64,000 nucleotides of DNA from a virus. The notes below the pieces were generated by a model. It searched no databases, was not told the origin of the DNA, and worked only from the letters and a program-made list of their open reading frames with translations. Location of the stretch: positions 45,974 to 109,973 of the IMG/VR virus record IMGVR_UViG_3300022552_000002; one strand, given 5' to 3'. The stretch's first letter is position 1. Each line of letters begins with the position of its first letter. A program made the translations under genes and the position numbers. This document shows, piece by piece, positions 8,859 through 36,426 of this stretch.

Positions 8859-9272
8859 ATGAGTGACCAGATTGGATACCACGGGTACGATGGCACGGGT
8901 CTCAGTGAGGAGATCCTTGCTTCGAAAGAAAACCTCGTCGAGCAGTCTGTGACTATCGACGCTTCCTGTCGTGACACTCAGCACGATGTTACGACAGATC
9001 TTCGTCGTGGTTTGGTTCTGTGGCCTGACCCGACAGTGGCAGATCGCTACACGCAGTTCGATGCTGCTGCCAAGACAGCCCTCGCTGGTGCTGAAGCTGT
9101 GGTTCTCGCTGTGCCGCTGGACATCAGTGGTAGTGTGGATCTTGTGGCAAAGGTCTACTACGGTGGTGTCTTCAAGCCAGACAAGCTGGTGGATGACAGC
9201 GGTTATGGCCTGACCCACTTCGATGCAACCGAGCGTGCTAAGGCACAGCGCATCATCATCAAGAATGAGTAG
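8859..9272 (+). CDS. Head decoration protein
   Basis: 137 aa between scaffold and MCP, with a GGAGG RBS. VTIDA...LRRGLVL...VVLA...YYGGVFKPDKL is a gpD-like pattern. Confidence 0.7.
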   Translation: MSDQIGYHGYDGTGLSEEILASKENLVEQSVTIDASCRDTQHDVTTDLRRGLVLWPDPTVADRYTQFDAAAKTALAGAEAVVLAVPLDISGSVDLVAKVYYGGVFKPDKLVDDSGYGLTHFDATERAKAQRIIIKNE

Positions 9273-9330
9273 TGTGGTTTGGAGGAGACACACTCTTTCT
9301 TGAAAGGAAAGTTCTGAAAAGGAGTAAGAA

Positions 9331-10584
9331 ATGGATGATCTGAGAAACCACGAACTCCTCCAGCCAGCGCATATCTCCAAGCTGCTGGATGAGATCATTC
9401 CTGACGACAGTCAGTATTACATGACGACTATCATTCCGTTAGTCACTCAGGATACTGACGAAGTGATCGTGGATGTGCGCGACAATATCGGTGGCATGAC
9501 TCAGGCAGTGGCCCAGGGTGCTGAGTCGCCGATGGTTGAGTTCCGGGGACAGAGCCAGTTCAAGTTCACCCCGGCGCATTTCCGTGAGAAGACAGTGTTG
9601 AGTGAGCGCGATCTCAAAGTGATCCGCAAGATCGGTACTGCTTCTGAGTTAGCCAAGGCTGAAGATCGTGTGGCCGAGGTCGTTGGTGGTCTGCGTATGC
9701 GCCTCGAGACAAGGATCGAGTGGTGCAAATGGCAGATGGTCTTCGGTACTCTCGACATCGATCAAACCGATGTGCAGTTCTCGGTGGATTACGGTATTCC
9801 AGCGGACTACACGCCAACACTCGCTGGTGTTGACAAATGGGATGCGCTGGCAACAGCTGATCCTGTTGATGACATCATTGAGTGGGCGTACCTGTTCAGG
9901 GATGAGGGAATCGATCCTGAGTACCTGCTCTTTACTCGTGCGGTCGAGAAGCTTCTGCTTCAGAACACAACACTGCGTGAGTTGGCCGAGGCACACTACA
10001 CCAATACCGGCAAAGCCGAGATGAACACGGCTCGCCTCAACGAGATGCTGAAAACCTTCGCGGGTTATGCATACAAGGTGTACGACAAGGGTTACTTCTT
10101 CAAGATGAAGTTAGAAACTCCTGTCACACCAGCGAGCACAAGCTTCATCGTCAGCGAGAACCCTGGTGTCAATACTGGTGATGAGGTGACGTTGATCCAC
10201 AAGAGTGGTTCGCGTCTTCCTGGTGGAAAAGTGAAAGTCACGGTCACGCCGACCGGTCTTTCCTTTGCGCACGCTGCTATCGGTGGAACCGTGACCTTCC
10301 CGGCCGGTTCTACCGTTCGCATCAAGAAACGCTTCATCCCTGACAACCTAGCGTTGCTCATGGGTGCGGTGCCTCCTGGGACCACAGGTGGTACGGACTT
10401 CGCAGAGTTCGTTTCAACTCCAAGTCCCTACAATGGTGGCATCATGAATGCGCAGCCTGGTCCGTTCGGGAAGGTTGTTGTGGATGATGATGGCGATCCT
10501 CCTAAGGTGTCGGTCATTGCCGGTATCTCGGGGCTTCCTGTTCTGTATCATCCGACCTGCAACCTGATCGCTACTGTCTACTAG
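9331..10584 (+). CDS. Major capsid protein (lambda gpE/Phage_cap_E-like) with a beta-rich insertion domain
   Basis: FTPAHFREKTVL, RLETRIEWCKWQMVFG, VDYGIP, KWD...ADPVDDI and FIPDN, with a strong AAGGAG RBS and biased codons. Confidence 0.9.
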   Translation: MDDLRNHELLQPAHISKLLDEIIPDDSQYYMTTIIPLVTQDTDEVIVDVRDNIGGMTQAVAQGAESPMVEFRGQSQFKFTPAHFREKTVLSERDLKVIRKIGTASELAKAEDRVAEVVGGLRMRLETRIEWCKWQMVFGTLDIDQTDVQFSVDYGIPADYTPTLAGVDKWDALATADPVDDIIEWAYLFRDEGIDPEYLLFTRAVEKLLLQNTTLRELAEAHYTNTGKAEMNTARLNEMLKTFAGYAYKVYDKGYFFKMKLETPVTPASTSFIVSENPGVNTGDEVTLIHKSGSRLPGGKVKVTVTPTGLSFAHAAIGGTVTFPAGSTVRIKKRFIPDNLALLMGAVPPGTTGGTDFAEFVSTPSPYNGGIMNAQPGPFGKVVVDDDGDPPKVSVIAGISGLPVLYHPTCNLIATVY

Positions 10585-10602: not shown

Positions 10603-10645
10603 TTTTCAAGGCTGGGGTATGGGAAACTGTACCCCACCTTGAAAA
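10603..10645 (+). terminator. Long RNA hairpin after the MCP gene (terminator/attenuator or 3' stabiliser)
   Basis: TTTTCAAGG-C-TGGGGTATGG-GAAA-CTGTACCCCA-CCTTGAAAA: 19 bp including two G-U pairs and a GNRA loop. No long U tail follows. Confidence 0.6.
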
Positions 10646-11496: not shown

Positions 11497-11829
11497 ATGG
11501 AAGAAGCAACAAAACTCGTTTCACTTAATGACTTAATCACATTGAGTAATCTTGTGTTGATTATTGCGATCCAAGTTGTACTTGGTGCTGTTAAGGTCAC
11601 ACTCGAAAAACTGAAGCTTTTGAAAAAGCTTCCAGTGGAAATACTTCTTCCATATGCTCCAATGCTCATGGGCATGGCAGCGGCTTTTATTCCTGGTGTC
11701 ATTGATGCAGCTAACTTAGGCACCAAGATTGTTTTTGGTGTTGCGATTGGTGGCATTAGTGGTCAGATTTGGAAAGCTGTTTGGAAGAATAGTGGCGATC
11801 TTCTTGATGGTAAACTTGGAGAAAAATAA
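11497..11829 (+). CDS. Putative holin
   Basis: 110 aa, three hydrophobic segments, charged C-terminus, AGGAGG RBS. Confidence 0.65.
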   Translation: MEEATKLVSLNDLITLSNLVLIIAIQVVLGAVKVTLEKLKLLKKLPVEILLPYAPMLMGMAAAFIPGVIDAANLGTKIVFGVAIGGISGQIWKAVWKNSGDLLDGKLGEK

Positions 11830-12185
11830 TGAGTTTCAAATTAATCATAAGTTGGTTTAAAACTAACGCAGTAAAAATATTACTTCTATTACTGCTTTTT
11901 GTTGTGCTTATTTTGATAGCACTCACGTTTTGGTTCAAGCTGCGTGGGTTTAAGATAACGGACTTGCTTCTTCGTTTGCAGGTGGCCAATGCTAAGAATG
12001 AGGTAAACCACCTGCAAACGAAGAAGACACTATTAGAAGCTAAAGAAACAATTAAGATAAATGATATTAGAGAAATTGAAAAAGAAATCAAAGAAGAAAA
12101 GAAGAAAGTAGAAGCAGGAAAGATGAAGATTGAAGGGATGACAAACGATGAGATTATTGCTCGTTTTACTGAGCTTGGCTTTTAG
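11829..12185 (+). CDS. Putative inner-membrane spanin-like protein
   Basis: N-terminal TM (ILLLLLLFVVLILIALTFWF) followed by a long coiled coil, directly after the holin. Confidence 0.55.
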   Translation: MSFKLIISWFKTNAVKILLLLLLFVVLILIALTFWFKLRGFKITDLLLRLQVANAKNEVNHLQTKKTLLEAKETIKINDIREIEKEIKEEKKKVEAGKMKIEGMTNDEIIARFTELGF

Positions 12186-21994: not shown

Positions 21995-23779
21995 ATGGGT
22001 ACTCTTGGTCGAATTGCAATTGGAGCCCGTGGCCAGACTTCCTACGGGGAAGAGGTCGCTTGGGGCGAACCAGTTGCGCCTACTCGAAGAGTGGGTTTTG
22101 TTTCTGAATCTTTCAACAACGAGATCGCAAGTCTCGTTTCAGAGGAAATCGATCCTAGTCGTGGTATCTCGAAGCGTGCTCAAGGTGTGAGTAACATCTC
22201 GGGTGATCTAGCTTTCGAGCAGAACACGCAGGGATACGAAACTCTGTACAAACATGCTCTTGGTGATCACGTCACCATGAACAAGGTTGATGGTGGTGTT
22301 CGAACACAGATTCTTTCTGATTACGTTTCAGGTACAACGTTGTCAGTTGAGAACAATGCTGTGTTCGAAGGCACACCTGGAGCGGATTGGGGTCTGTCAG
22401 TTGTCTACAAAGACAGCAATGGACTCTTGACCGTTCAGGCAGTGGTATATTCTGCGCTGGATTCTGGTGGTGAAGACATCACCATCGTCGATCCAAGTCA
22501 GGTGCTTCATAAGGGCGCGTGGGTTTTCCAGAGCTATATCGGCAGCGATGACTTCTGGGATGATGTTTACACGCACTACATCGAAGCAGCACGCGATCTT
22601 CCCATCGGTCTGACCTGGGAGATCGGTCGTGACGTGGCGTTCTTCACTTATGGTGGCTGCAAAGTCAACACAGCGGAGAATACCTTCACGGCACAGGAGA
22701 TTTGCACAGGCACATTCTCCTACATCGGTAAGGGCGAGTATGTTGGTGGTGAGTTGGTTTCTGATGTCACTGCTGGTGATACAACCTTTACTCTCACTGA
22801 CTACGTTCTGACAAACAGTGGTAGCATTAGTGCTGCTGTTCAGACTGTTGGTGCTGGTCTCAGTGACATCACTGTGAGTGGTGCGTTCACTGGTGATGAA
22901 ACAACCGCTTACCAAATCAAGATCTCGTTGGCAGGTGCCACAGACGAGTTTGACTGGTCGAGCGATGGTGGCGTGACCTGGACAACTGGTGTCGTTATGA
23001 CTGGTGCAGCTCAGCTGCTCGACCAAGGCGTCTCCATTACATGGGCAGCTATCACAGGCCATGTGCTTGATGACGAGTGGCGCATTCAGACTGGTGACAT
23101 CATCGGTTTCAACTTCTCCGGTGCCACGGTGCAGATGGAGTCCGAGAACGATATCACTTACACAAGCTATAACGCTTACAGTGGTGTCTTCTCTGGTGTT
23201 CCAGCTTCCGGTGTTGGTTCTGTCGAGTATGACCATAGTGCAACTCTTCCGGTTGCTCCGCAGTCTACTTGGGGAACCAGCGTCACAGAGCCGCCAGCTC
23301 TCAATCCCATTACTAGCTTCAAGGCTGGTATCTACATCAATGGGACGTTCCAAGAGGTGCTGTCTGCTAGCTGGACCCTCAACAACAACCTGTTCGCAGA
23401 CAAGTTCCAGCTTGGTGACAGATACCGAGCTGGTCTTCCTGAGCAGCAAAGAACGGTTGAGGGCACGTTCAACACCGAGTTCGATGATACGGTCCTCTAC
23501 AAAGCTTATCTCAAAGGTGCTCGTGCTTTCCTCGAGATTCGCTGCATTGAAGACCAGAACCGCATCGACAGCCAAGGTGTGCAGACTGCTCCGACAGGAC
23601 ACTGGATTTACTCCCAGAAGCACTGTCTGTTCCCGAAGGTCTACTACAGTGGCACCACACCGCAGATCGGTGGCCCTGAGCAGATCGTCCACGATTTCCC
23701 GTTCCAGGCATTCGTGGATAACGAGAACACCATGAATGAAATGGCGCTCATCTTCGTCAACGAAAGAGTGTCCATCTAG
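21995..23779 (+). CDS. Tail tube (major tail) protein with inserted accessory domains
   Basis: YGEEVAWGE, SESF, FFTYGGCKVNT, WTLNNNL, RTVEGTFNTEFDD, FPKVYY and PQIGGPE are siphovirus tube motifs. Strong RBS and codon bias. Confidence 0.85.
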   Translation: MGTLGRIAIGARGQTSYGEEVAWGEPVAPTRRVGFVSESFNNEIASLVSEEIDPSRGISKRAQGVSNISGDLAFEQNTQGYETLYKHALGDHVTMNKVDGGVRTQILSDYVSGTTLSVENNAVFEGTPGADWGLSVVYKDSNGLLTVQAVVYSALDSGGEDITIVDPSQVLHKGAWVFQSYIGSDDFWDDVYTHYIEAARDLPIGLTWEIGRDVAFFTYGGCKVNTAENTFTAQEICTGTFSYIGKGEYVGGELVSDVTAGDTTFTLTDYVLTNSGSISAAVQTVGAGLSDITVSGAFTGDETTAYQIKISLAGATDEFDWSSDGGVTWTTGVVMTGAAQLLDQGVSITWAAITGHVLDDEWRIQTGDIIGFNFSGATVQMESENDITYTSYNAYSGVFSGVPASGVGSVEYDHSATLPVAPQSTWGTSVTEPPALNPITSFKAGIYINGTFQEVLSASWTLNNNLFADKFQLGDRYRAGLPEQQRTVEGTFNTEFDDTVLYKAYLKGARAFLEIRCIEDQNRIDSQGVQTAPTGHWIYSQKHCLFPKVYYSGTTPQIGGPEQIVHDFPFQAFVDNENTMNEMALIFVNERVSI

Positions 23780-23791
23780 CCTAGAGTCTTT

Positions 23792-23872
23792 CCGCTGAAT
23801 TTCCCCCGAGGAGCAGCGGTCGTCATGGAGGTGGGTGAAGTAGTAGCGAGAGCGAACCTTCACTCACCTCCA
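23792..23872 (+). ncRNA. Structured RNA element after the tail tube gene (two hairpins, the second with a loop-E/SRL-like motif)
   Basis: Stem CCGCTG/CAGCGG, then a 15-bp stem TGGAGGTGGGTGAAG/CTTCACTCACCTCCA (one G-U) enclosing TAGTA-GC-GAGA-GC-GAAC. Confidence 0.6.
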
Positions 23873-24127
23873 CTCCCCATCCTTATGATTACAAAGATTT
23901 CATATTGGTTAGCTATTGCGTTTTATTCTCCAAGTATACTTATAGCCAAACTCTATAATTACATTGCATATAAACTTCTTAAATCATCATATGAATCTTA
24001 TGGAATGCCTGCTGGTTATCGTTCGAAGCTAGCCTTGAAGCTAAGGACAAGAGCGTATAAGATAGTGGACGAAGTTGCGGTAGATGCAATTGCATATGCT
24101 GCACAGATAAAAGAAAAGGAGACAATA

Positions 24128-24517
24128 ATGAAAGCGATTCGTGCAGACCACCCCTACGACCTCGTTCCCAAAGAAGACAAAAAGAAGCCAAAGAAAGAGC
24201 AGACCATCTTCAAGGTCAAGTTCATCGATCCCTACATGGCAGCCAAGCTGGGCGACCAGATGTTCGATGTGAAGGGTGCTGGCTCCAGTCGTAAGGAGAG
24301 GCTGCTCACAGGTACACAGGCTCTCGAGATCTTGAAGGATTGTTTGGTGGGTTGGGAAAATCTTGAGCATCCTGATTCTACCGAAGAGAACAAGAAACTC
24401 GTCGAATTCGATAAGAAGGATATCGACGGGATGATTGAGATGGTTCATCCGAAGACCCGCTCCGAGATTGTTGACTTTGCCCGTGGTGAGTCTGAACTCG
24501 ATGAGGGGGAAGAGTAA
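24128..24517 (+). CDS. Tail assembly chaperone (G-like)
   Basis: AAAGGAG RBS before ATG 24128, motif LKDCLVGWENL, located between tube and tape measure genes, ends at a slippery GGGGGAA. Confidence 0.8.
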   Translation: MKAIRADHPYDLVPKEDKKKPKKEQTIFKVKFIDPYMAAKLGDQMFDVKGAGSSRKERLLTGTQALEILKDCLVGWENLEHPDSTEENKKLVEFDKKDIDGMIEMVHPKTRSEIVDFARGESELDEGEE

Positions 24518-25167: not shown

Positions 25168-28100
25168 ATGACAGGCGGTGGCCGAAGTATCACCTTCGGC
25201 GTTAATATATCTGTCAAAGAATTAGGTCTGATCAAGAAGCTTGCTACAGAGCTTCGTGAGTTCTCTACTGGTGCGATTGAAGCAGCAAAAGGTTTAGCTG
25301 CCATCAATAAAGTTGGTGGTCAGATTAATCCAGCGAATATCGATAAAGCAGCACAAGCTTTCGATAAACTAAATCAAGCTTTTCAAAGAATAAAAACAAC
25401 AAGTTCTACCGCAGGTCTTGGTTCTGTAGCTAAAGAAGTTAGTCAAGCTACTGGACAAATGGATGGTTTCACTCGAAAAACATCTACATTGCGTAGTCAA
25501 TTGGCTGAAGTAAATAAAGAAGCTTCAAAGATATCTACATCAATAAAATCAGACGAAGCATTAAGGGCAACTAAAACACAAATTGATAATACAAGATCTG
25601 CAACAAATAAATTACTTAGTAATTTTCAAAAGATATTATCTACAAGACAAAAACTTTCTCAATCAGAACGAGATGGCGTAACAGTAACTCAGTCAGTAGT
25701 AACTCAAGCCAATAGAGCTGTGGAGAGCTTTAGACAACTCCACAGAACCACACAATTCAATATTCAGGCATTCAGTGCTGCTTCTAAAAATGTAGAGAAG
25801 TTAGGTGTTGATGCAGATACAGTAAAGAATAGATATAAAAAAGTATCTGATGTTGTTAAACAATTAGTAGGAGAAATTCAAAAATTAGCAGCAACATCTC
25901 AACAAAGAATTAATCTAGAAAAACAAGCGAATGCTGTAATTAAAAGTTCTGGTCGTATTGCTGCATCGAAACAACTTCAACAAGCACAACAGAATCTCAA
26001 CAAAGAAAAAATCAAAGGCATTGAGCTGACTTCTCAGTTAGCTCAGATCGAAAGAGAAAGAGCGCGTGCTGCTCAACAACGTAGAGAGATAGTTGCTACA
26101 CCACGAGGTGCATTTGGTGCTGGTGCAGCTGGTGCCGATGCTCAATCTAAATCAATAGAAGCGGCAACAAAAGCTCTTGATGCATACGATAATAGACTTA
26201 AAGCATCTAAAGCTCTTATAGAACAACACAATCAAGTTCAACGTACAGCTGCACAAGTTACATTGAGAACTGCTGCCGTTAGAAATGCAGCAGCAATGGA
26301 AGTTCGTGCTGCTCAAAACATGATCGCACAAGGTTTTAGTCAAGTTTCACAGAAGGAATTACAAAGAGCACAACAATCGAGACTTTTTGCACAACAAGAA
26401 CTTGAAAATGCTAAGAAAGTTTTAGCAGCCAGACAACAAACTTTCCAACAATCGGCTGCTGCCTCTAAAGTATATGATAAGACTCAAAAAGACCAAATAA
26501 GAACAAGTCAAGCTCTTATAAATCAACAACAAAGACAGAGTGGTTTTCTTAATAAAATAAATGAAGGTTTTACTAGAGTTATTAGAACACAATTACTTTA
26601 CTTTGCTTCTACAATATTGATATTCGGAGCTATCGCAAAACTCAATGCATCATTCGAATCTCTTGTTGAACTTTCTGGACGTACAGCTAGAGCATTTGCT
26701 GTTTCTCGTTCTTCTGTACTTCTCTTTGAAGAACGTTTTGTTGCTCTACAAGAAGCAGTAGAAACAACCGCTGCTGTAACTGGTGAATCTATCAACGATG
26801 TAAGTGAAGCTATTTTCCAATTTGGTAGTGCTGGTCTTCAAGCAGAAGAATCTATTGCAGCTCTTGAATCTACAATGAATCTGATTCAGGCAACTGGTGC
26901 AGATGTAACAACTACTACAAAAACAATTGCAGCAACATATCGTTTGATGCGTGGTCAACTTGAAGATGTTGGCGATCAAACAGCAAAGTTCGCACGTATC
27001 AATGATATTATTGCTGCCACATATAGAGACAACCAAGTTGAAATTAACGACTTCACTCAAGCAATGAAGTTTGCTCTTCCTGTATCACGCCAGTTGAATC
27101 TTAATCTTGAACAGACTTCTGGAATCATCGCTCTCTTACATAACAACTTCATTCGTGGTGGTGAATCTGGTAGAGCACTACGTGTCATCTTCTCGCGTAT
27201 GTCGAGAGAGATGGATCAATTCTCTGAAGCATTTGGTATTGCAATCGATCCAGATAAACCATTAGATTTCTTAGATGTAATGGAACAGATTAGCAATCGA
27301 ATGAACACTGGTGCAATCACAGCTAATCAAGTTGCTACTGTTTTCGAGAGATTAGGTCTTCGTGGTGCAAATGCTTTCATTATTATGGCTCAACAATTTG
27401 AAGAATTAAATGGTGTTATCGGTAAATTAGAAGACACTTCTGCTGGTGCAGCGAAATCAATGGCACTTATCAAACGTGAAAGCGATCCAGGACAGCTTAA
27501 AGTATTTACAGAGAATATGCTGATACTTGGTCGTACAGCAATTGAACCTATTGGATTTATTATTTTGAAAGTTGTTCGAGCAATTAATACATTTGCAGAA
27601 GCAATTAGAGACACAGGAGTAGAAAAAGTTCTTGGTATTTTATTGAGACTAGTTTCTGTTCTTATCACAATAAAAGTTGCTGCTGCTCTTGCTTCACTTA
27701 TTTTTGGTCAACTTGGTATCAGCACTGGATTCATGGCTACTTCATCAATAGCCGCAGCATTAGCACAAGGTAAATTAATATTTGCAATGGAGTCTTCTTT
27801 AATAGTTGCTAAGAAAAATATCGCAACTATGCTTTCGCTTTCTGGTGCTTTGAATGTTTTGAAATTAGCAGCAATCAAAACTGGTGCAGTTCTTATTGCT
27901 GCTTTTCCATATGTAGCAATTGTAGCGTTAATTGGTGTTTTAGTTTATTGGATTTATCGACAAATTACAGCACAAGAAAGATTGATTGAGATAAATAATG
28001 AGAGACTCGAACAAATCAGAGAAGAAAAGAAGGAAAGAAATGAACAACTTGCTTCTTATGACAATACAATAGCAAAACTTGAAGATCTTAATCGAGCTTA

Positions 28101-31100
28101 TGAAGAGAATCGCACCACTATATTAGAAACGCGCAAAGCAATATCTGAAGCTGTTAAATCTCATGGAGAACTTGGTATTGCGGCAGCTGTTGCTGGTGAT
28201 GATCTTGGTTTATTTATCAATAAAACTAAAGAACAAAGAGCACAAATTCAAAGTTTATTAGATGAATTAAAGAAAGAAGATAAAGAAATATTCAAACAAA
28301 ATATAGAAATATTCACACAAAATATCGACAATGCTGCTGCCGCATATGCTAATCTTCAAGATCAATTAGATAGAGGCGTTATACAAAAAGCTAGTCCTCG
28401 TGGATTGATTCAAGAGTTTAAAATAACTGAAGGTGAAATCGAAAATCAAAGAGAAAAATTAGCTCAATATCAAAAGAACGCGAGAGATGCTGCGCTTGAA
28501 ATGATAAAACTTGCTAATAGTAATGGCGAATTAGCAAGATCGTTTGGTGTAGTAATTAACGAAGCATTTTCTGTTGCAGCATCTATGAATGCTTCAGCAG
28601 AAAATGCAAAAAGTTTTGGAAATGTATTAGAATATTTAGAAAGAACAGCTATAAATCTTTCAGAACTTCCTCTTAGAGAAAAGATTGATGAACTTAGAAA
28701 AACAGTTGAAGGTTTAGAAGGACTAAGACTAAAGTTTTTGTTCAAATATGATTTCATTATTCCACAAGAAAGCATTAATGAAGCAAAAAAGAAAACACAA
28801 GATGCTATCAATAAAATTAAATTACTAACTAAATCTGATAGAGAAATAAAAATTACTTTATTGTATGAAGAAGAAGATTTCTCTATTAATATGGAACATG
28901 TAAAAAAGAATGCAGATCAATTAGCAGAAATTACTAATTCTGCTATGAGAGATGCAACAAAAGGTTTAGATTTAGCACAATATATTACAGTAGATGACCA
29001 ACAAATTGTTAATTTATTCGAAGCTGTTGCAGAAAATACAAAACTTATAAAAAGTGGTTTTCAAGAAGGATCTAAAGAAGCTGTAAAATTTGCAAATAAT
29101 GCTAAGAAAATAGACGATGTTCGGCGTAGTATTCTTTCTCAAGCACAATTTTACGCTAAAAATCGAAACGAAATTGAAATTATCGAAAGAACTATCAATA
29201 CGCTCCTTGAAGATAGAGTCGCATTAGCAGAATATTTAGTGGTATTACAACAAAGACAAATAGCTGTCACTTCTGCATATAATTTGCAATTGAATGCAGA
29301 AATAGATCTACTTCAGAAGACAAGAAATCTTAGTCTCAACACAACAAAAAATACACAAGATCGAGTTGATGCAACAAGAGAACAAGTTGTTGCTACAGGT
29401 ATATTATATAGAGGTGCTGTTGCTAATGAAAAAATAGCAAGAAATAATTTGAAGACAATTGAAGATACGAAAAAAGGTATTCTAGGTACTATACGTCATT
29501 ATTTAACATTAAAAGAAGCTTCTAGTGAAGTAGAAAATGCCACAAAAGAAAGAGGCGAAATATACGAAAATCATAGAAAGTCATTAGAAGGACATACTAA
29601 ATCGCTTTTGGCTCAAGTCAATTGGACACATCAAATGAAGTCAGAAATTGAAAAATCATTTGATGCTCATAGAAAAATAAATCTTTACGGAGAAGATAGA
29701 GTTAGTCAATTAAGAGCAGAACTTGTTCATCAACGAAATATCATTAAAGAAGAAAAAAGATATTTAAAAGATTTAATAAGTGAAGGAATTATTCTTGAAG
29801 ATAAAGAAATTTTGAAAGCAAAAGATAGAGAATTAAGGGCCAAAACTGCTGAGTTACAAAGAAAAGAAACTCAAGAAATTTTCAAACAAAATATTGGATT
29901 GTTAAAAAATGCACAAGCTTTAGAATTAGCTTTAGCATCTGGTTCAGAGATGTTAAAAGTTAGCCAAAATATTGCTTTAATAGATGCTCGACTTGTAAAT
30001 GAAATGGAATTGTATAATAAATTGGTAAAAAGAATTAAAAAAGAAGAAAATAGTGTATATAGATTAGATAGACAAAGACTTGTGGTAATGGGTAGAATTA
30101 GAGCAGAAGCCGAAAAACGAGTTAAACAAGTTATTAAAGCTTTCGAAAAAGAAGTAGATATACGCAATCAATTTATCGAACAAGTCAACACAATAAGAGA
30201 AATGAATATAGCATTAGAAGAATCAAAAGACATTAAGGAACAAATACTCATTAGCACTATGGAAGAGCAAATTGCTTCTAAAGAATTAGAAACCATACAA
30301 AATAGAATCAATGTAATTGAAAAAGAAAGAGAGCTACAAGGATTTAGTGAGATTACAAGAAGATTAGAATTAAATAATCTGTACAACCAACAAGCAGATA
30401 TAATCAAGAATCGGATTGTTAAAGAACAACAAAAATTAAATAGTATTAGAGAAAAAGAAAGAAACTTAATAGATTCTGTTAACAATCTATATGGCAAACA
30501 ACTTGATAATATCGGACAAGTGAGAGACGCATTAGAAGAAGCATTCAAACCATTAGTTGAATTTGATTTCGATCAACGTCCATTTACTGCTGCTATCTTT
30601 GCTTCCCAAGCGCTTGGGAAGAATCTCTTAGAGATAGCTCAATTAAGTCCACAACAAGTTATTGATGAACTCAATACAGGTCTCCGTGAAGGAACTGTTG
30701 ATTTCAAGATATTCAGCGGTCATGCTCGAGAACTAGCTGAACATATTGCGCGCATTGGTGCAGAGGAAAGAGAGCTTCGTCAAATACAAGAAGATATAAG
30801 AGCACAAGAATTTGCAACAGATTTGCTTAGAGTTAAACGTGCATTATCTGTAGAAGACATAGAAGCAGCAAAAAAAGCTTTTGATAAACTTGGTGAGAGC
30901 GCTCAGGTTTTAGATCCCATTACTGGTAAAGTAGATTATGATGCTACTCGAAAAAATATGAATATGTTGAAAGATTTAGCAAATGAAATAGCAACAGCAT
31001 ATGAAGAAGCTGGAAATACAACTGAACAAAATCTAAAAAATCTTCAAACTAGATTGAATGAAATTCTTGGAGATATTGCTGAAGTAACAACAAAGATAGC

Positions 31101-34100
31101 AGATGAGTTAAAGAATACGAAGTTTGCAGATGCATTCTTCGATCAGATGACATCTATCATTCGTCAATTAAGAGATCTCAATGGGACGACCATTGAATTC
31201 AAAATCGATGATGTAACAGCACAGCTTGCTCGAATGAATGTGCTTGTTCCACAACCAACAGGATATCAAGAAGGTGGTCCTATTGGTGGGACAGGCAGAG
31301 GAGATATAGTTCCTGCTCTCCTCGAGCCAGGTGAATTCATAATACCAAGAAATGTAGTTGAATCTCTTGGTGTTGGATTCTTTGAAAACTTTAGAAATCC
31401 AAAGTTTGTTAAAAAGATTGCAGCTTTGAATGGCGTTAATGAGATTCCAAAATTTAAAGATGGCGGTCTTGTAGGATATCAAAATGGTGGTGCAGTTGAA
31501 TTTACTTCTGCCGAAGTATCAAATGCGTTCAATGCAATAGAATTTAGCGCAAAAGAAGTATCAGATGCATTAAATACTGTAGAGTTTTCTGCCAAAGAAG
31601 TAAATGAAGCGCTTTATGGAATTCAATTTTCTGCCAAAGAAGTAGCAGATGCATTAAATTCAATAGAATTTACTGAAGAAGAAATAATAAATGCAATGGA
31701 TTTGGAAAAAGCTATAGCGGCTTTACCAATGGGTGATGTTGATATTGATTTGGAAAAAGCTATAGCGGCTTTACCAATGGGTGATGTTGATATTGATTTG
31801 GAAAAAGCTATAGCGGCTTTACCAATGGGTGATGTTGATATTATAGAAAAAGAAAGAGCAGAATTGATTTCTAAATTGAGAGAAATGAATGCTGCTGGTG
31901 TTGATACAGCTGAAGAAATCAATCTAAGTGTCAGATTATTAAGAGGATGGGTTGAAAGATTAGAAGCAGAACCAATAGAAATGACAAAAGCAGTTGAAGA
32001 AGGATTTACTAATGTAGCTATGTCTACGGATTTAGCTTCTATTGTTGAAGAAGGATTTGCTAATATTGTAATAGACGAACCAAATAATGATAGGCAACAA
32101 TTGTTAGCAACATTAGCTGAATTAAGTCCTTCACAAGCTAAAACAGCTGAAGAATTAAATATAAGCAATAATCTTCTTGAAGCAGCAATTAAAGGACTCG
32201 AAAAAATAGCAGAAAAAGAAAGAATTATAGCAGAAGCAGGTTTAGGAAAAGAAGCCGATATTGGTCCTGAGAGAACAGAACAACTTCTTGATCTTCCTAT
32301 TGAAGAACTTAAAACAGCAATGAAAGAATATGTGGAATTTCGAAAATCCATATTAGAAAAAGAAAAACTTTTAGCAGAAGCAGGTTTTAAAGAATTTGGT
32401 CCTGGTAAAAAAGAAGAGTTAATCGACTTACCTATTGATGAGCTTGAAACTTTATTAAAAGAATACAAAAAAATACCATTATATGTAGAAGAAGGAGTAG
32501 AAATAGGAATAGGAGCACAACAAGATATAAAAATTAATTTTATTTATGAAGAAGAATTAGAAAAACTTAGATTAGAGTTAATGTCTCTTGATCAAACAAG
32601 AATCGAATTGTCATTTAATGCTACTGGATTAGATCAAATCAAAATCGATGTCAGAGGTATAGCTGAAGAAGTTCCTGGTAGCAAAAGAGCTGGCTTCCAA
32701 ACAGGTGGTCCTGTTCCTGGTATTGGTTCTGGAGATATAGTTCCAGCACTCCTAGAGCCAGGTGAGTTTGTTATACGCAAAGATATAGTAGATAAGCTTG
32801 GAATATCTTTCTTCAAAGATTTGAATAGATTTAAAGCTGGTGGCGTTGTTGGAATGCAGGCAGGAAGTCCTGGTAGTCCAATAACAACAGGTAATGTTCG
32901 CGGTTCTTTTGAATTACCAGCAATGGAACCATTTGTTGAACAAGTAAAAGTTGTTCGTGAAGAATTTGATAAAATTGCAGAAGATACAAAAGAAATTGCA
33001 AAAAATGTTGATAATGCGGAATTTGAAAAGATAACAAAAGAATTAGAAAATATAAAATCTCTTAATGTAGGTTTTGTTGAAAAATTGAGAGAAGCAGCAA
33101 AGTTATCTGGTAAAAAAATTGATGTTTCTAAATGGGGCGAACTCACCCAATATGCTAAAGAACTTGGTATTGATCCAATTATCATTACTCAAATGGGACA
33201 ACTTGGTACTGAAACTGATTCTACTGGTCAAATAATTAATAAGCTGCAACAAGAATCTGGTGGATATTTCTCTCAAATAAAAGAAATTATAAAAGGTGTT
33301 GGAAGTGGTGCAATTCCTGTTGGTAGAGCAATAACAGGTGTTCGTGCAGTTATTGGTAAATTCCAATCTGAAGTTTCAAATGCAAATAAAGAAGTTGTTG
33401 AATTTACTGAAGCATTACTCAATGCATTCGGTCCAAAGATTAGAAAAGCAATTCAATCTATTGTTAAAACATTCCAAGATGTTTTCGGAAGAATACTTCC
33501 TGGTTTATTTGGTGGTTTCTTAGATTCATTTATCGATACTCAAGTTGGTATAGTTGCAGCTGCCAATGAAGCAGCTGAACAAACAGCTGATGCTTATTAC
33601 GATGCTCGTGCAGATTTAGTTGAATCTTTGAAACGTAATGAAATTTCTTATTTCGACTACTTCAATAGTCTTGAAGATCTAAATAAAGATACTGCTGATA
33701 ATATGGCAGATGCAGCTATTCAAGCTGAACAAGATAGAGTAGAAGCTGTTGGTGATGCAATCGTTGGATTGACTAGCACAATACTAGATGAAGTAGGCAA
33801 ATGGGTAGATGGTTTTAGCGATTTCTTTGGAAACATAATTGATGGTTTCGTTGATATAGGCGTGGGCGTAGCCGATTCACTAGATGAAGTTGGAGCATTA
33901 ATAGGCAATATTATAGAAATGGGAATTGGCGCTCTTGGTGCAGCTGGTGGTGGAGGCATAGCAGCTGCCATTGGTGGTGTAGCCGGTACTGCATTGGCTC
34001 CTGGTGTTGGTACAGCTATTGGTGCTGGTGCTGGTGTTGCTATTGGATCTATTGTTGGTGGAGCTGTTGGATCTATATTTAAAACAGCTATTCCAATTGT

Positions 34101-36426
34101 AGGCGATATACTCAAAGCGTTTGAGCAAATGGCTTCGGCTGCGATCAAAGGTGTTCTTGATATTATTCCTTATATTGTTGAACTTGGTGCAATGACAGAA
34201 GATGAATTCAATGCATTAGTTGGATATACAAACAAAGCTAATGAACACATTAAGGGTGTTCTCGAGCTTCTTCCTGGTGATATTGAAACATTCACAAATC
34301 AATTCGCTGAAAGACTTCCTATTATAGTAAAGAAGTTTGAAGAGCTTCTTCCAGATATTATTACTGCTCTTGTTGGTGGTGTGAATAGTGCAGAGAAAAT
34401 GCTTGAAGGAGCAATACCAACTGTATTCAGAATAATCACAGATCAACTTGATAATATTATTGCTTTGGCAATTCCACAAATGCTTCGTTTCTTTAATTCT
34501 ATTCTTGATTCACTTCCAAGTTTATTCACTAGTATTTTCACTTCAATAATAAACAGTGCTAAGAATTTATTTAGTGGAAATAAACTTACTGTTTTGTTCC
34601 AAAATATAGTCGATACAATTACAGAAGTTTTTACTTCTTTTGCTAAAGATTTTGTGCGTCCATTGGCAGATTCATTAAAAGAAAATATGCCATCATTGAT
34701 TTTAGTTATGACAGAAACATTAGTTGAAGCAATACCGATTCTTACTGATGCAATGGTTATCGTTATCAATGCTATGGCAGATGTAATAGGAGATCCTGCA
34801 ATTCAAGATGCTCTAAAACGCGCAATGTTTGCTTTGTTTGGAGCGATGTTTGAAGCAATTAGAGAATTGGTTCCTGGCTTTGATGCATTCTTAGCAATTC
34901 TAGCAGCAGTAGTGTTAGTTGTTGGTACATTAGTTGGCGCAATAGCCGTTGGATTGTTAGGAACGTTATCTTTACTTCTTTTAGTTCTTTCTCCATTAAT
35001 TGTAACGCTTGGATTAGCCAATGCAATAATCATAGTTCTTGCTGGATTGATAGTAACCGTTCTGTTGCCACCACTCACTGCACTTATTGGATTCTTCGGA
35101 ATATTAGCATCTGTTATAATTGGAATCACATTGAAACCACTGATAGATTTGTTTGGATTCTTTGGAGACGTAATAGATGCTGTTGGTAAAAAACTCAAAG
35201 ACAATGAAAAAGTACAAGAAGCTATTCTTAAATTACAAGAGGCATTTGATAAACTTGGTGAAGCAGCTGGTAAATTGTTTGAAGCTCTTGGACCAGATAA
35301 AGCTGATCCAGATTTAATTGATGCTGTTGCAAATGCAATTGTATTTTTCATAGAAATACTATTACTGTTAGTTGTTCCACTTGAAATTTCAATAACAATT
35401 ATGACTCAGATGATAGATGTAATGACAAATGTTATAGATAGCTTAGGAAAACTTTTCCATATATTTAAACTGATAGATCAAATATTAGTTGGAGAAAGTG
35501 TTGTTCCGTCTTTGAATTTACTATATGACATCCTTGCGCTTGTTGATCGAGCAATCAATGAAACTGTTACATATTTAAGAAGCCTTGTGGCTGTGTTCTC
35601 GGCTCTCTTTAATCCTGTTCAGCAGATTGAAGACATTACTAATACTGTTGCTATATACTTTAATACACTTTCAGCAGCAATGTTGAATGCTATTGATCCT
35701 GTACAACAATTAGCTGATTTAATCGATGGTACTTTCACAACTGCAATGGATAATTTTAAAACGATTATTAATGGCATAATTGCTTTGATTCCAGAGCCAG
35801 GAGAAGTGCTCGAAGAAATAGATAATACAACAGGAAGTAATCTTTCAACAGCTGAACAACAACTTTCTGAAGGCGATCTTGTTGGCGCTTTTGGTTCTGC
35901 AACTGGTTTGTATCATCAAGGTGGTATATTTACTGTTCCTTCTGATCCACAAAGTCAGACTTTCTATAGTTCGCTTGGTTTGGCGTCTAACGAAGGTTTG
36001 GCTCTTCTCATGGACAAGGAAGGTATACTCACAGAAAGAGGCGTAGAAGCAATAGGTGGAGCTTCTGTGCTTGCTCAATTGAACCAGGGACAGAATCCAT
36101 TCACTCAAGAAGCAGCTGTTCAAGCTAGTGTAGCGTCTGCTTACGATACTGAAGAAGAAGCTGTTTCATTTAATGTTGGTACAATAGATGCTGGAACAGA
36201 ACCAATTGGAAGCGTTGGCAAAGCATCAAGTAGTGATTCTGTTAGTCAAGAAACCAATATAGAAGTAAACATTGATATGTCTAATTCAAACTATCAAAGT
36301 GAAACTGTAGCCCAGGACGTTGAAGAACAAATCGTTGGTTCTATGCAGAATCAAGAAGGAGCGATGTTCGAAGAAATAGACACTAAGTTTGGGAATGATA
36401 CAATGTCTGGAGTGAAACGTAGATAA
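25168..36426 (+). CDS. Tape measure protein (3752 aa)
   Basis: TP901-type TMP core (AIFQFGSAGL...NNFIRGGESGRALR), extensive coiled coil, hydrophobic segments and GDIVPALLEPGEF motifs. Follows the chaperones. Confidence 0.92.
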   Translation: MTGGGRSITFGVNISVKELGLIKKLATELREFSTGAIEAAKGLAAINKVGGQINPANIDKAAQAFDKLNQAFQRIKTTSSTAGLGSVAKEVSQATGQMDGFTRKTSTLRSQLAEVNKEASKISTSIKSDEALRATKTQIDNTRSATNKLLSNFQKILSTRQKLSQSERDGVTVTQSVVTQANRAVESFRQLHRTTQFNIQAFSAASKNVEKLGVDADTVKNRYKKVSDVVKQLVGEIQKLAATSQQRINLEKQANAVIKSSGRIAASKQLQQAQQNLNKEKIKGIELTSQLAQIERERARAAQQRREIVATPRGAFGAGAAGADAQSKSIEAATKALDAYDNRLKASKALIEQHNQVQRTAAQVTLRTAAVRNAAAMEVRAAQNMIAQGFSQVSQKELQRAQQSRLFAQQELENAKKVLAARQQTFQQSAAASKVYDKTQKDQIRTSQALINQQQRQSGFLNKINEGFTRVIRTQLLYFASTILIFGAIAKLNASFESLVELSGRTARAFAVSRSSVLLFEERFVALQEAVETTAAVTGESINDVSEAIFQFGSAGLQAEESIAALESTMNLIQATGADVTTTTKTIAATYRLMRGQLEDVGDQTAKFARINDIIAATYRDNQVEINDFTQAMKFALPVSRQLNLNLEQTSGIIALLHNNFIRGGESGRALRVIFSRMSREMDQFSEAFGIAIDPDKPLDFLDVMEQISNRMNTGAITANQVATVFERLGLRGANAFIIMAQQFEELNGVIGKLEDTSAGAAKSMALIKRESDPGQLKVFTENMLILGRTAIEPIGFIILKVVRAINTFAEAIRDTGVEKVLGILLRLVSVLITIKVAAALASLIFGQLGISTGFMATSSIAAALAQGKLIFAMESSLIVAKKNIATMLSLSGALNVLKLAAIKTGAVLIAAFPYVAIVALIGVLVYWIYRQITAQERLIEINNERLEQIREEKKERNEQLASYDNTIAKLEDLNRAYEENRTTILETRKAISEAVKSHGELGIAAAVAGDDLGLFINKTKEQRAQIQSLLDELKKEDKEIFKQNIEIFTQNIDNAAAAYANLQDQLDRGVIQKASPRGLIQEFKITEGEIENQREKLAQYQKNARDAALEMIKLANSNGELARSFGVVINEAFSVAASMNASAENAKSFGNVLEYLERTAINLSELPLREKIDELRKTVEGLEGLRLKFLFKYDFIIPQESINEAKKKTQDAINKIKLLTKSDREIKITLLYEEEDFSINMEHVKKNADQLAEITNSAMRDATKGLDLAQYITVDDQQIVNLFEAVAENTKLIKSGFQEGSKEAVKFANNAKKIDDVRRSILSQAQFYAKNRNEIEIIERTINTLLEDRVALAEYLVVLQQRQIAVTSAYNLQLNAEIDLLQKTRNLSLNTTKNTQDRVDATREQVVATGILYRGAVANEKIARNNLKTIEDTKKGILGTIRHYLTLKEASSEVENATKERGEIYENHRKSLEGHTKSLLAQVNWTHQMKSEIEKSFDAHRKINLYGEDRVSQLRAELVHQRNIIKEEKRYLKDLISEGIILEDKEILKAKDRELRAKTAELQRKETQEIFKQNIGLLKNAQALELALASGSEMLKVSQNIALIDARLVNEMELYNKLVKRIKKEENSVYRLDRQRLVVMGRIRAEAEKRVKQVIKAFEKEVDIRNQFIEQVNTIREMNIALEESKDIKEQILISTMEEQIASKELETIQNRINVIEKERELQGFSEITRRLELNNLYNQQADIIKNRIVKEQQKLNSIREKERNLIDSVNNLYGKQLDNIGQVRDALEEAFKPLVEFDFDQRPFTAAIFASQALGKNLLEIAQLSPQQVIDELNTGLREGTVDFKIFSGHARELAEHIARIGAEERELRQIQEDIRAQEFATDLLRVKRALSVEDIEAAKKAFDKLGESAQVLDPITGKVDYDATRKNMNMLKDLANEIATAYEEAGNTTEQNLKNLQTRLNEILGDIAEVTTKIADELKNTKFADAFFDQMTSIIRQLRDLNGTTIEFKIDDVTAQLARMNVLVPQPTGYQEGGPIGGTGRGDIVPALLEPGEFIIPRNVVESLGVGFFENFRNPKFVKKIAALNGVNEIPKFKDGGLVGYQNGGAVEFTSAEVSNAFNAIEFSAKEVSDALNTVEFSAKEVNEALYGIQFSAKEVADALNSIEFTEEEIINAMDLEKAIAALPMGDVDIDLEKAIAALPMGDVDIDLEKAIAALPMGDVDIIEKERAELISKLREMNAAGVDTAEEINLSVRLLRGWVERLEAEPIEMTKAVEEGFTNVAMSTDLASIVEEGFANIVIDEPNNDRQQLLATLAELSPSQAKTAEELNISNNLLEAAIKGLEKIAEKERIIAEAGLGKEADIGPERTEQLLDLPIEELKTAMKEYVEFRKSILEKEKLLAEAGFKEFGPGKKEELIDLPIDELETLLKEYKKIPLYVEEGVEIGIGAQQDIKINFIYEEELEKLRLELMSLDQTRIELSFNATGLDQIKIDVRGIAEEVPGSKRAGFQTGGPVPGIGSGDIVPALLEPGEFVIRKDIVDKLGISFFKDLNRFKAGGVVGMQAGSPGSPITTGNVRGSFELPAMEPFVEQVKVVREEFDKIAEDTKEIAKNVDNAEFEKITKELENIKSLNVGFVEKLREAAKLSGKKIDVSKWGELTQYAKELGIDPIIITQMGQLGTETDSTGQIINKLQQESGGYFSQIKEIIKGVGSGAIPVGRAITGVRAVIGKFQSEVSNANKEVVEFTEALLNAFGPKIRKAIQSIVKTFQDVFGRILPGLFGGFLDSFIDTQVGIVAAANEAAEQTADAYYDARADLVESLKRNEISYFDYFNSLEDLNKDTADNMADAAIQAEQDRVEAVGDAIVGLTSTILDEVGKWVDGFSDFFGNIIDGFVDIGVGVADSLDEVGALIGNIIEMGIGALGAAGGGGIAAAIGGVAGTALAPGVGTAIGAGAGVAIGSIVGGAVGSIFKTAIPIVGDILKAFEQMASAAIKGVLDIIPYIVELGAMTEDEFNALVGYTNKANEHIKGVLELLPGDIETFTNQFAERLPIIVKKFEELLPDIITALVGGVNSAEKMLEGAIPTVFRIITDQLDNIIALAIPQMLRFFNSILDSLPSLFTSIFTSIINSAKNLFSGNKLTVLFQNIVDTITEVFTSFAKDFVRPLADSLKENMPSLILVMTETLVEAIPILTDAMVIVINAMADVIGDPAIQDALKRAMFALFGAMFEAIRELVPGFDAFLAILAAVVLVVGTLVGAIAVGLLGTLSLLLLVLSPLIVTLGLANAIIIVLAGLIVTVLLPPLTALIGFFGILASVIIGITLKPLIDLFGFFGDVIDAVGKKLKDNEKVQEAILKLQEAFDKLGEAAGKLFEALGPDKADPDLIDAVANAIVFFIEILLLLVVPLEISITIMTQMIDVMTNVIDSLGKLFHIFKLIDQILVGESVVPSLNLLYDILALVDRAINETVTYLRSLVAVFSALFNPVQQIEDITNTVAIYFNTLSAAMLNAIDPVQQLADLIDGTFTTAMDNFKTIINGIIALIPEPGEVLEEIDNTTGSNLSTAEQQLSEGDLVGAFGSATGLYHQGGIFTVPSDPQSQTFYSSLGLASNEGLALLMDKEGILTERGVEAIGGASVLAQLNQGQNPFTQEAAVQASVASAYDTEEEAVSFNVGTIDAGTEPIGSVGKASSSDSVSQETNIEVNIDMSNSNYQSETVAQDVEEQIVGSMQNQEGAMFEEIDTKFGNDTMSGVKRR
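31699..31842 (+). repeat. Perfect 48-bp tandem repeat x3 within the tape measure gene
   Basis: GATTTGGAAAAAGCTATAGCGGCTTTACCAATGGGTGATGTTGATATT three times, encoding DLEKAIAALPMGDVDI. Confidence 0.97.

What the first reader, a model, noticed from the sequence alone, without database searches (positions are those of the whole stretch)
23826..23872. Sarcin-ricin-loop-like RNA hairpin directly after the tail tube gene
Seen: a 15-bp stem with a G-U pair closes UAGUA-GC-GAGA-GC-GAAC. Known: the rRNA sarcin-ricin loop is AGUA-C-GAGA-G-GA(A)C, a loop-E/bulged-G motif capped by a GAGA tetraloop. The phage element has the same parts with one extra base pair. Inference: on what is probably one of the most abundant late transcripts, it could be a decoy for SRL-targeting ribotoxins, a binding site for a translation factor or phage protein, or only a very stable 3' protector. 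An upstream hairpin (23792-23819) suggests a larger structured RNA.
Basis: partly seen in the sequence, partly recalled or inferred. Interest (0 to 1): 0.7.

Follow-up and report, generated by a model that had tools for sequence, protein, structure and literature searches.

The report
Terminator-type hairpin after tail tube gene
The hairpin is real and its tip really does spell the ribosome's sarcin-ricin motif, but related phages carry an ordinary terminator hairpin with other tips at the same spot, so it is most likely a transcript-end hairpin and the resemblance is specific to this lineage.

Summary
Observation confirmed. Window 23826-23872 (+) folds into a 15-bp stem with one G-U pair (-28.4 kcal/mol, z -6.4). 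Its cap is UAGUA / GC-GAGA-GC / GAAC. The 5x4 internal loop is letter-for-letter the prototype sarcin-ricin (S/R) motif.

Every relative has a strong hairpin directly after the tail tube gene, and most have a U-tract. The nearest relative with readable DNA (L030, tube protein 80% identical) keeps the stem base but has a plain 6-nt loop and a U-tract. A contig about 90% identical in both flanking genes replaces the whole spacer. A scan of IMG/VR found no other hairpin with this cap. Rfam finds nothing.

A looser "SRL-like cap on a long stem" is expected about 1-10 times by chance in a scan of this size. The exact form is much rarer.

The same phage has a 19-bp, GAAA-capped hairpin after its major head gene.

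Best reading: a terminator-derived hairpin that marks or protects the 3' end of the tube mRNA, here without a U-tract.

Earlier notes of this scan describe SRL copies in phage tRNA-cluster RNAs on other DNA. This hairpin does not belong to that family.

The parts
21995..23779 (+). Tail tube protein gene (594 aa), ending in TAG. GC3 is 0.54, against 0.16-0.39 for most neighbouring genes.
   Evidence: Pfam PF18906 Phage_tube_2, E 2e-28. PHROG 290. GC3 values.
23792..23819 (+). Hairpin 1: CCGCUG...CAGCGG stem with an inner UCC/GGA helix. The loop core UCCCCCGAGGA is conserved in the two closest relatives.
   Evidence: Fold. Alignment A2: L001 keeps CCGCTG/CAGCGG, and L030 has CCGCTA/TAGCGG, a compensatory G-C to A-U change. 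It is absent from the relatives at 57-63% identity.
23826..23872 (+). Hairpin 2, the finding: a 15-bp stem, an S/R-type 5x4 internal loop, a 2-bp helix and a GAGA tetraloop. The 3' tail is CUCCCCAUCCUU, so there is no U-tract.
   Evidence: The sense strand folds better than the antisense strand (-28.4 against -23.6 kcal/mol).
23841..23857 (+). The cap: UAGUA (23841-45), G-C and C-G pairs (23846-47 with 23852-53), GAGA (23848-51), GAAC (23854-57).
   Evidence: It is identical to the prototype S/R loop U2A3G4U5A6/G9A10A11C12 of PMC8450098. It is not present in L030, L002, L019 or L005.
23885..24517 (+). Downstream ORF of 210 aa. It has a hydrophobic N-terminal extension of about 80 aa (GC3 0.27), in frame with a 129-aa tail-chaperone-position protein. 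That protein has its own AAGGAG ribosome-binding site and ATG at 24128 (GC3 0.62). The long form's ATG lies 12 nt after hairpin 2 and has no Shine-Dalgarno sequence.
   Evidence: The fused reading frame is kept in 12 of 14 lineages.
10603..10645 (+). Analogous hairpin 18 nt after the major head protein gene (9331-10584): 19 bp with one bulge and a GAAA tetraloop, -27.8 kcal/mol, no clean U-tract.
   Evidence: (PHROG 29, major head protein, E 5e-35).

Best explanation
Hairpin 2 is this phage's version of the transcript-end hairpin that the whole lineage keeps directly after the tail tube gene.

It forms in the sense-strand late mRNA. There it marks or protects the 3' end of the abundant tube message. 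It could do this by pausing or partly terminating RNA polymerase, or, since the U-tract is missing here, by blocking 3'-to-5' exonucleases after processing or downstream termination. Either way the tube mRNA would outlast or outnumber the message for the genes that follow.

The S/R-motif-plus-GAGA cap is a replacement of the hairpin tip specific to this lineage. Its most likely effect is to turn what would be a floppy 17-nt loop into a fully stacked, very stable tip. It is not an imitation of the ribosome.

Shown: the hairpin, its position, positional homology with U-tract terminators in relatives, and non-conservation of the cap.

Inferred: that it ends or stabilises the transcript, and that the cap only stabilises.
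For: 1. In every relative with readable DNA except two distant ones (L023, L024), the strongest local structure is a hairpin within about 10-40 nt of the tube stop codon.
2. L030, L002, L019, L005, L029 and L014/L015 have a U-run right after the stem, the classic form of an intrinsic terminator.
3. L030's stem is homologous to the window's: GGAGUGGGUGG... against GGAGGUGGGUG..., and ...CCACCCACUCC against ...CACUCACCUCC. Its tip is a plain 6-nt loop and its tail is CAUUUUUAUUAU.
4. G-U pairs sit on the sense strand. The sense fold is more stable than the antisense fold in 10 of 14 loci and in the window. This points to RNA, not a DNA palindrome.
5. The other top structural gene, the major head gene, is followed by a comparable 19-bp GNRA-capped hairpin.
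6. The head and tube genes share a raised GC3 of 0.54-0.61, against a background of 0.16-0.39. This fits heavily expressed genes.
7. The S/R prototype loop U-C/A-A/G/U-A/A-G is the most stable variant measured in PMC8450098. A role of the cap in stability is therefore physically reasonable.
Against: The window's hairpin has no U-tract (CUCCCCAUCCUU, 4 U in 12), so it fails a defining feature of an intrinsic terminator. Termination here is therefore doubtful, and the stabiliser or processing role is inference only.

The 129-aa gene downstream has GC3 0.62, which suggests it is also well expressed. That argues against a strong block at this site.

No RNA data exist.

The exact match of all 13 cap letters to the S/R prototype plus GAGA is rare, about 1e-8 per genome. 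A selected role for the cap cannot be excluded.

Only two close relatives were informative, and for one of them only the replacement of the spacer was seen, not its sequence.
Confidence: 0.78

Rival explanations
1. Functional sarcin-ricin-loop mimic. The cap folds like helix 95 of 23S rRNA on an abundant late mRNA. It would bind or titrate something that recognises the SRL, such as a ribotoxin-like defence nuclease or ADP-ribosyltransferase, a translational GTPase, or a phage protein.
For: The cap equals the prototype S/R loop plus a GAGA tetraloop, and the exact form is rare by chance. Bacterial effectors that modify the SRL exist: a Photorhabdus Rhs toxin ADP-ribosylates it, as cited in bioRxiv 10.1101/2024.02.24.581848. 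Earlier notes of this scan, which are unchecked, report SRL copies in other phage RNAs.
Against: The cap is not conserved in L030 (80%), in the X6 contig (about 90% identical flanks), or in any more distant relative.

No second example with this cap on a stem was found in IMG/VR.

There are two base pairs, not one, between the bulged-G module and the tetraloop, so the universal AGUACGAGAGGA 12-mer is broken.

The genome has no L11-site/GAC mimic and no LSU-like Rfam signal anywhere, and the hairpin is not in the tRNA cluster.

The phage record encodes no RIP or PIN protein.
Confidence: 0.05
2. Processing or translation-control element. The coaxially stacked helix, equivalent to about 21 pairs, would be an RNase III-type processing site. 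Alternatively it sets how often ribosomes start at the Shine-Dalgarno-less AUG (23885) 12 nt downstream, and so controls the ratio of the long membrane-anchored form to the short form of the next protein.
For: In all close relatives the long form's AUG lies 6-13 nt after the hairpin and has no SD sequence. The extension has low GC3 (0.27) and the internal-start part has high GC3 (0.62). The stem is long enough for a double-strand-specific nuclease.
Against: There is no direct evidence. Relatives with plain U-tract terminators have the same gene arrangement, so the special cap is not needed for it. This reading overlaps with the best explanation rather than excluding it.
Confidence: 0.12
3. DNA-level palindrome: a protein-binding or recombination site in the double-stranded genome.
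For: It is a 15-bp inverted repeat, among the strongest in the genome.
Against: The arms are not perfectly complementary. G-U on the sense strand becomes a C-A mismatch on the other strand, and the antisense fold is 4.8 kcal/mol weaker. The same asymmetry is seen in most relatives. The arm sequences differ completely between relatives while position and shape are kept. The site lies after a gene's stop codon, with a U-tract in relatives.
Confidence: 0.03

Closest known systems
Intrinsic (Rho-independent) terminators and 3' stabiliser hairpins placed after major structural genes of phages, for example T7 T-phi after the capsid gene 10 (from my own knowledge, not tested here)
   Same: A G+C-rich sense-strand hairpin lies a few tens of nt after the stop codon of a very abundant virion protein gene, followed by less abundant tail genes. 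Relatives carry the full stem-plus-U-tract form.
   Different: The window's copy lacks the U-tract. It also has a 17-nt structured cap in place of a 3-8 nt loop.
Sarcin-ricin loop, helix 95 of 23S/28S rRNA
   Same: The 5x4 S/R internal loop UAGUA/GAAC is identical to the H. marismortui H95 prototype of PMC8450098, and it is topped by a GAGA tetraloop.
   Different: Two Watson-Crick pairs (G-C, C-G) separate the motif from the tetraloop, where the SRL has one C-G pair. The element is not part of an rRNA, is not conserved in relatives, and gives no Rfam LSU signal.
Generic sarcin-ricin / loop E / bulged-G module, a recurrent RNA 3D motif
   Same: The sequence fits the motif fully. The motif recurs in many unrelated RNAs: five sites in LSU rRNA and three in SSU rRNA (PMC8450098), and many Rfam families (PMC13085918, listed). 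It stabilises helices.
   Different: The 3D fold is not shown here. It is only predicted from sequence identity to the prototype.
Phage non-coding RNAs copying the GTPase-associated centre and the SRL, in tRNA clusters
   Same: A phage-encoded hairpin with S/R-type geometry.
   Different: This one lies between tube and chaperone-position genes, about 26 kb from the two tRNA genes. It has no GAC-like flanks and no LSU-like signal, and its cap is not conserved.

Membership tests
Sarcin-ricin loop (23S rRNA helix 95) | Bulged-G / S-turn internal loop (AGUA opposite GA(A)) | tested here: met
   UAGUA/GAAC at 23841-45 and 23854-57. It is identical to the prototype loop in PMC8450098. This holds at sequence level only.
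Sarcin-ricin loop (23S rRNA helix 95) | GAGA tetraloop | tested here: met
   GAGA at 23848-23851, closed by C23847-G23852.
Sarcin-ricin loop (23S rRNA helix 95) | Universal 12-mer AGUACGAGAGGA, with a single C-G pair between the S-turn and the tetraloop | tested here: not met
   Here the sequence is AGUA-GC-GAGA-GC-GAA, with two pairs. No copy of the 12-mer within 2 mismatches lies at this site.
Sarcin-ricin loop (23S rRNA helix 95) | Conservation across homologues | tested here: not met
   The cap is absent from L030, L002, L019, L005 and all more distant relatives. The spacer is replaced in the X6 contig. No other instance on a stem was found in IMG/VR.
Sarcin-ricin loop (23S rRNA helix 95) | Recognition by translational GTPases, or cleavage or depurination by ribotoxins | not testable with these tools
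   Needs biochemistry.
Intrinsic (Rho-independent) terminator | Stable G+C-rich sense-strand stem-loop just after a gene | tested here: met
   -28.4 kcal/mol, z -6.4, 47 nt after the tube gene's stop codon.
Intrinsic (Rho-independent) terminator | U-tract directly 3' of the stem | tested here: not met
   The tail is CUCCCCAUCCUU, and the terminator scan did not list the site. The feature is met in the homologous hairpins of L030, L002, L019, L005 and L029 (7-8 U in 12) and by a U-run right after the core stem in L014 and L015.
Intrinsic (Rho-independent) terminator | Transcripts end there | not testable with these tools
   No RNA run holds the stretch.
Phage GAC+SRL mimic RNA of tRNA clusters (earlier scan notes) | Lies in a tRNA cluster and is flanked by a copy of the L11/GAC site | tested here: not met
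   The only Rfam hits in the 110-kb record are two tRNAs at genome 42114-43964, about 26 kb upstream. There is no LSU-like hit at E up to 0.1.

The most novel reading that the evidence does not exclude
The cap is a recently acquired, functional SRL imitation. Displayed on one of the most abundant late mRNAs, it would soak up a host defence enzyme that attacks the ribosome's sarcin-ricin loop (a PIN-type nuclease, a ribotoxin or an ADP-ribosyltransferase), or recruit a translational GTPase. In this lineage it would have replaced the plain terminator tip, and it would have made the U-tract dispensable.
Probability: 0.04. Interest if true: 0.8.

Novelty: new member of a known kind. Interest (0 to 1): 0.2.

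Why it matters
If the ordinary reading holds, this matters little. It is one more example of phages placing a strong hairpin after their most abundant structural genes. It also carries a caution: a textbook-perfect match to a famous RNA motif can sit on a fast-evolving hairpin tip without being conserved.

It would matter only if the cap proved to be recognised by SRL-binding proteins. That would make an mRNA-borne ribosome decoy testable. The present evidence speaks against it.

Tried and rejected
- Rfam, with permissive E-values, on the region, the whole window and the rest of the genome found nothing except two tRNAs.
- blastn against GenBank phages found no match. tblastn found only a 13% overlap with Cellulophaga phages.
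The contigs of the closest tube proteins, P0002 (86%, longer assembly), P0004 (79%), P0005 and P0006, could therefore not be fetched.
- The only 86% relative in IMG/VR and JGI (L001/L004/L016) ends at a contig edge just before hairpin 2.
- The downstream 210-aa protein as a query in IMG/VR gave no relatives.
- The exact loop 18-mer had 0 hits in IMG/VR.
- The conserved CACAGATAAAAGAARARGAG motif found only known loci plus one unrelated hit, L073.
- Sequencing runs: no RNA holder is listed. The DNA holders X2 and X4 are identical copies and give no variation.
- A formal covariation test (R-scape style) is not possible with three alignable sequences.
- A start of the downstream ORF at ATG 23825, inside the hairpin and with GAGGAG 10 nt upstream, is rejected. 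L030 has no in-frame start there and the conserved start is MITK/MIIR at 23885.
- Amber read-through of the tube stop codon into the next gene is rejected as a conserved feature. The frame is open in the window, but L030 and L002 have in-frame stops 5 and 8 codons later.
- RIP and PIN families were not found in the phage record.

Full report
**What is there**

The window is the right-hand 64 kb of a 110-kb uncultured virus record with 38% G+C.

ORF 21995-23779 is a tail tube protein (PF18906, E 2e-28; PHROG 290). After its TAG stop lie two sense-strand hairpins in a 105-nt spacer:
- Hairpin 1 is at 23792-23819.
- Hairpin 2 is at 23826-23872, and is the finding.

Hairpin 2 has 15 base pairs with one G-U pair. 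Its 17-nt top reads UAGUA-GC-GAGA-GC-GAAC. RNAfold returns exactly that structure at -28.4 kcal/mol, z -6.4, and 0 of 200 shuffles fold as well. It is among the three strongest hairpins of the whole record.

**How good is the resemblance**

The 5x4 internal loop UAGUA/GAAC is the same as the prototype sarcin-ricin (S/R) motif of helix 95 used in PMC8450098. The pairs are:
- U2-C12, lower trans sugar/Hoogsteen pair;
- A3-A11, trans Hoogsteen/Hoogsteen pair;
- G4, the bulged base;
- U5-A10;
- A6-G9.

That combination was the most stable of the variants measured there. A GAGA tetraloop sits on top.

The difference from the true SRL is that two Watson-Crick pairs, not one, separate the motif from the tetraloop. 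The universal AGUACGAGAGGA string is therefore interrupted.

**Is it more than chance**

- The linear pattern AGUA-(0-4 bp)-GNRA-(0-4 bp)-GA[AC] is expected 1.7 times in this genome and occurs twice.
- Using the real number of hairpins with 15-, 17- and 19-nt loops in this genome, a relaxed S/R+GNRA cap on a stem of 10 bp or more is expected about 7e-5 times per 110 kb.
- That comes to about ten times in a scan of 250,000 windows, or about once for stems of 12 bp or more.
- The exact prototype form is expected only about 1e-8 times per genome.

A reader looking for anything SRL-like would therefore meet a few chance cases. The exactness of this one is unusual but not decisive.

**Relatives**

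Protein searches found 62 tube homologues. Their DNA came from IMG/VR, JGI metagenomes and one GTDB MAG contig.

In every locus with readable downstream DNA except two distant ones (L023, L024), the dominant local structure is a strong hairpin a few tens of nt after the tube stop codon:
- L030, L002, L019, L005, L029, L014 and L015 have a U-run right after the stem, which is the classic intrinsic-terminator form.
- L007/L011/L018, L009/L017 and L013/L027 lack the U-tract, as the window does.

The closest relative with readable DNA is L030 (tube protein 80% identical).
- It keeps hairpin 1, with a compensatory CCGCUG/CAGCGG to CCGCUA/UAGCGG change.
- It keeps the base of hairpin 2 (GGAGUGGGUGG.../...CCACCCACUCC).
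- Its tip is a plain 6-nt loop and its tail is CAUUUUUAUUAU.

The 86% relative (L001/L004/L016) breaks off at a contig end just before hairpin 2.

Laying Logan contigs on the region showed a 6.4-kb contig from a sediment run. It is 92% and 89% identical in the two flanking genes. It replaces the whole 105-nt spacer with 86 letters less than 80% alike. That is the same length as I counted for L030's spacer. Two other runs hold identical copies.

A scan of IMG/VR for GTAGTANNGAGANNGAACC gave 37 hits. None sits on a stem longer than 5 bp, and the inner pairs occur at chance frequency.

The cap is therefore a singleton.

**What it most likely does**

The hairpin is the positional, and in its stem base the sequence, homologue of a terminator after the tube gene.

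- G-U pairs favour the sense strand: -28.4 against -23.6 kcal/mol in the window, and the sense strand is better in 10 of 14 loci. The structure is therefore an RNA feature of the mRNA.
- The major head gene (9331-10584, PHROG 29) is followed by a similar 19-bp hairpin with a GAAA tetraloop at 10603-10645.
- The head and tube genes stand out by GC3 of 0.61 and 0.54, against 0.16-0.39 for most genes. This fits heavy expression.

I therefore read hairpin 2 as a transcript-end hairpin for the tube message.

Because the U-tract is missing here, actual termination is doubtful. Protection of a 3' end against exonucleases, or a processing site, is the more likely mode. These steps are inferred, not shown.

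The S/R-GNRA cap would make the tip fully stacked and more stable than the nearest-neighbour energy suggests. Nothing requires more than that.

**Rivals**

- A functional SRL mimic (decoy or factor site) keeps about 5%.
  - For it: the exact cap, the existence of SRL-directed bacterial effectors (cited in bioRxiv 10.1101/2024.02.24.581848), and earlier unchecked notes of this scan on SRL copies in other phage RNAs.
  - Against it: non-conservation, the extra base pair, the absence of any GAC-like or LSU-like element, the 26-kb distance to the tRNA genes, and no RIP or PIN gene in the phage.
- A role in processing, or in setting translation of the SD-less AUG 12 nt downstream, is possible at about 12%. 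It overlaps with the main reading.
- A DNA-level palindrome is unlikely, at about 3%.

**Limits**

- No RNA run holds the stretch.
- Formal covariation statistics are impossible with three alignable sequences.

**Verdict**

This is a real, strong, sense-strand hairpin of an ordinary kind, with a striking but unconserved tip. Interest is low, at 0.2. The most novel reading not excluded is a functional SRL mimic, at about 4%.

Noticed in passing
window 23885-24517 (+); internal start at 24128: The gene after the hairpin is a 210-aa ORF. It has a hydrophobic, probably membrane-associated extension of about 80 aa (GC3 0.27), fused in frame and without a stop to a 129-aa protein in the tail-chaperone position. 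That protein has its own strong AAGGAG site and ATG (GC3 0.62) and an acidic GESELDEGEE tail. The fused frame, the internal ...QIKEKE.IM-KAI... start and the SD-less first AUG are kept in 12 of 14 lineages, down to 32% tube identity. This suggests a dual-start gene that makes an anchored and a free form. There is no Pfam or PHROG hit.
   Followed up: partly
window 23792-23819 (+); L001 4782-4814; L030 3303-3329: Hairpin 1 is better conserved than hairpin 2's tip. The loop core UCCCCCGAGGA is identical in the window, L001 and L030, and the stem shows one compensatory G-C to A-U change. It is absent from relatives at 63% tube identity or less. Its function is unknown. It contains an SD-like GAGGA.
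   Followed up: partly
window 23777-24517: The tube gene's TAG stop is in the same frame as the downstream ORF, with no further stop across the 105-nt spacer in this phage. In L030 and L002 an in-frame stop follows after 5 and 8 codons. Read-through is therefore not a conserved feature.
   Followed up: partly
window 10603-10645 (+): A 19-bp hairpin with one bulged C and a GAAA tetraloop lies 18 nt after the major head protein gene. It is flanked by UUUUCAAGG/CCUUGAAAA arms and folds at -27.8 kcal/mol.
   Followed up: partly
window 11967-12026: This is the strongest inverted repeat of the genome: a 20-bp stem with a 20-nt loop, -34.6 kcal/mol on the minus strand. It lies inside the coding ORF 11829-12185 (+), which has no family hit.
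   Followed up: no
window 8859-10584, 21995-23779, 24128-24517: Four genes have GC3 of 0.54-0.62 in a genome where most genes have 0.16-0.39. They are a 137-aa ORF before the head gene, the major head gene, the tube gene and the 129-aa chaperone-position protein. The likely cause is codon bias in highly expressed genes.
   Followed up: partly
window 25168-36426 (+): A single ORF of 3752 aa lies in the tape-measure position, which implies a very long tail.
   Followed up: no
L030 (DAOVRZ010000040.1, 42-kb contig): The closest relative with readable spacer DNA is a contig binned into a Halanaerobiales MAG. This could hint at the host or be a binning artefact.
   Followed up: no
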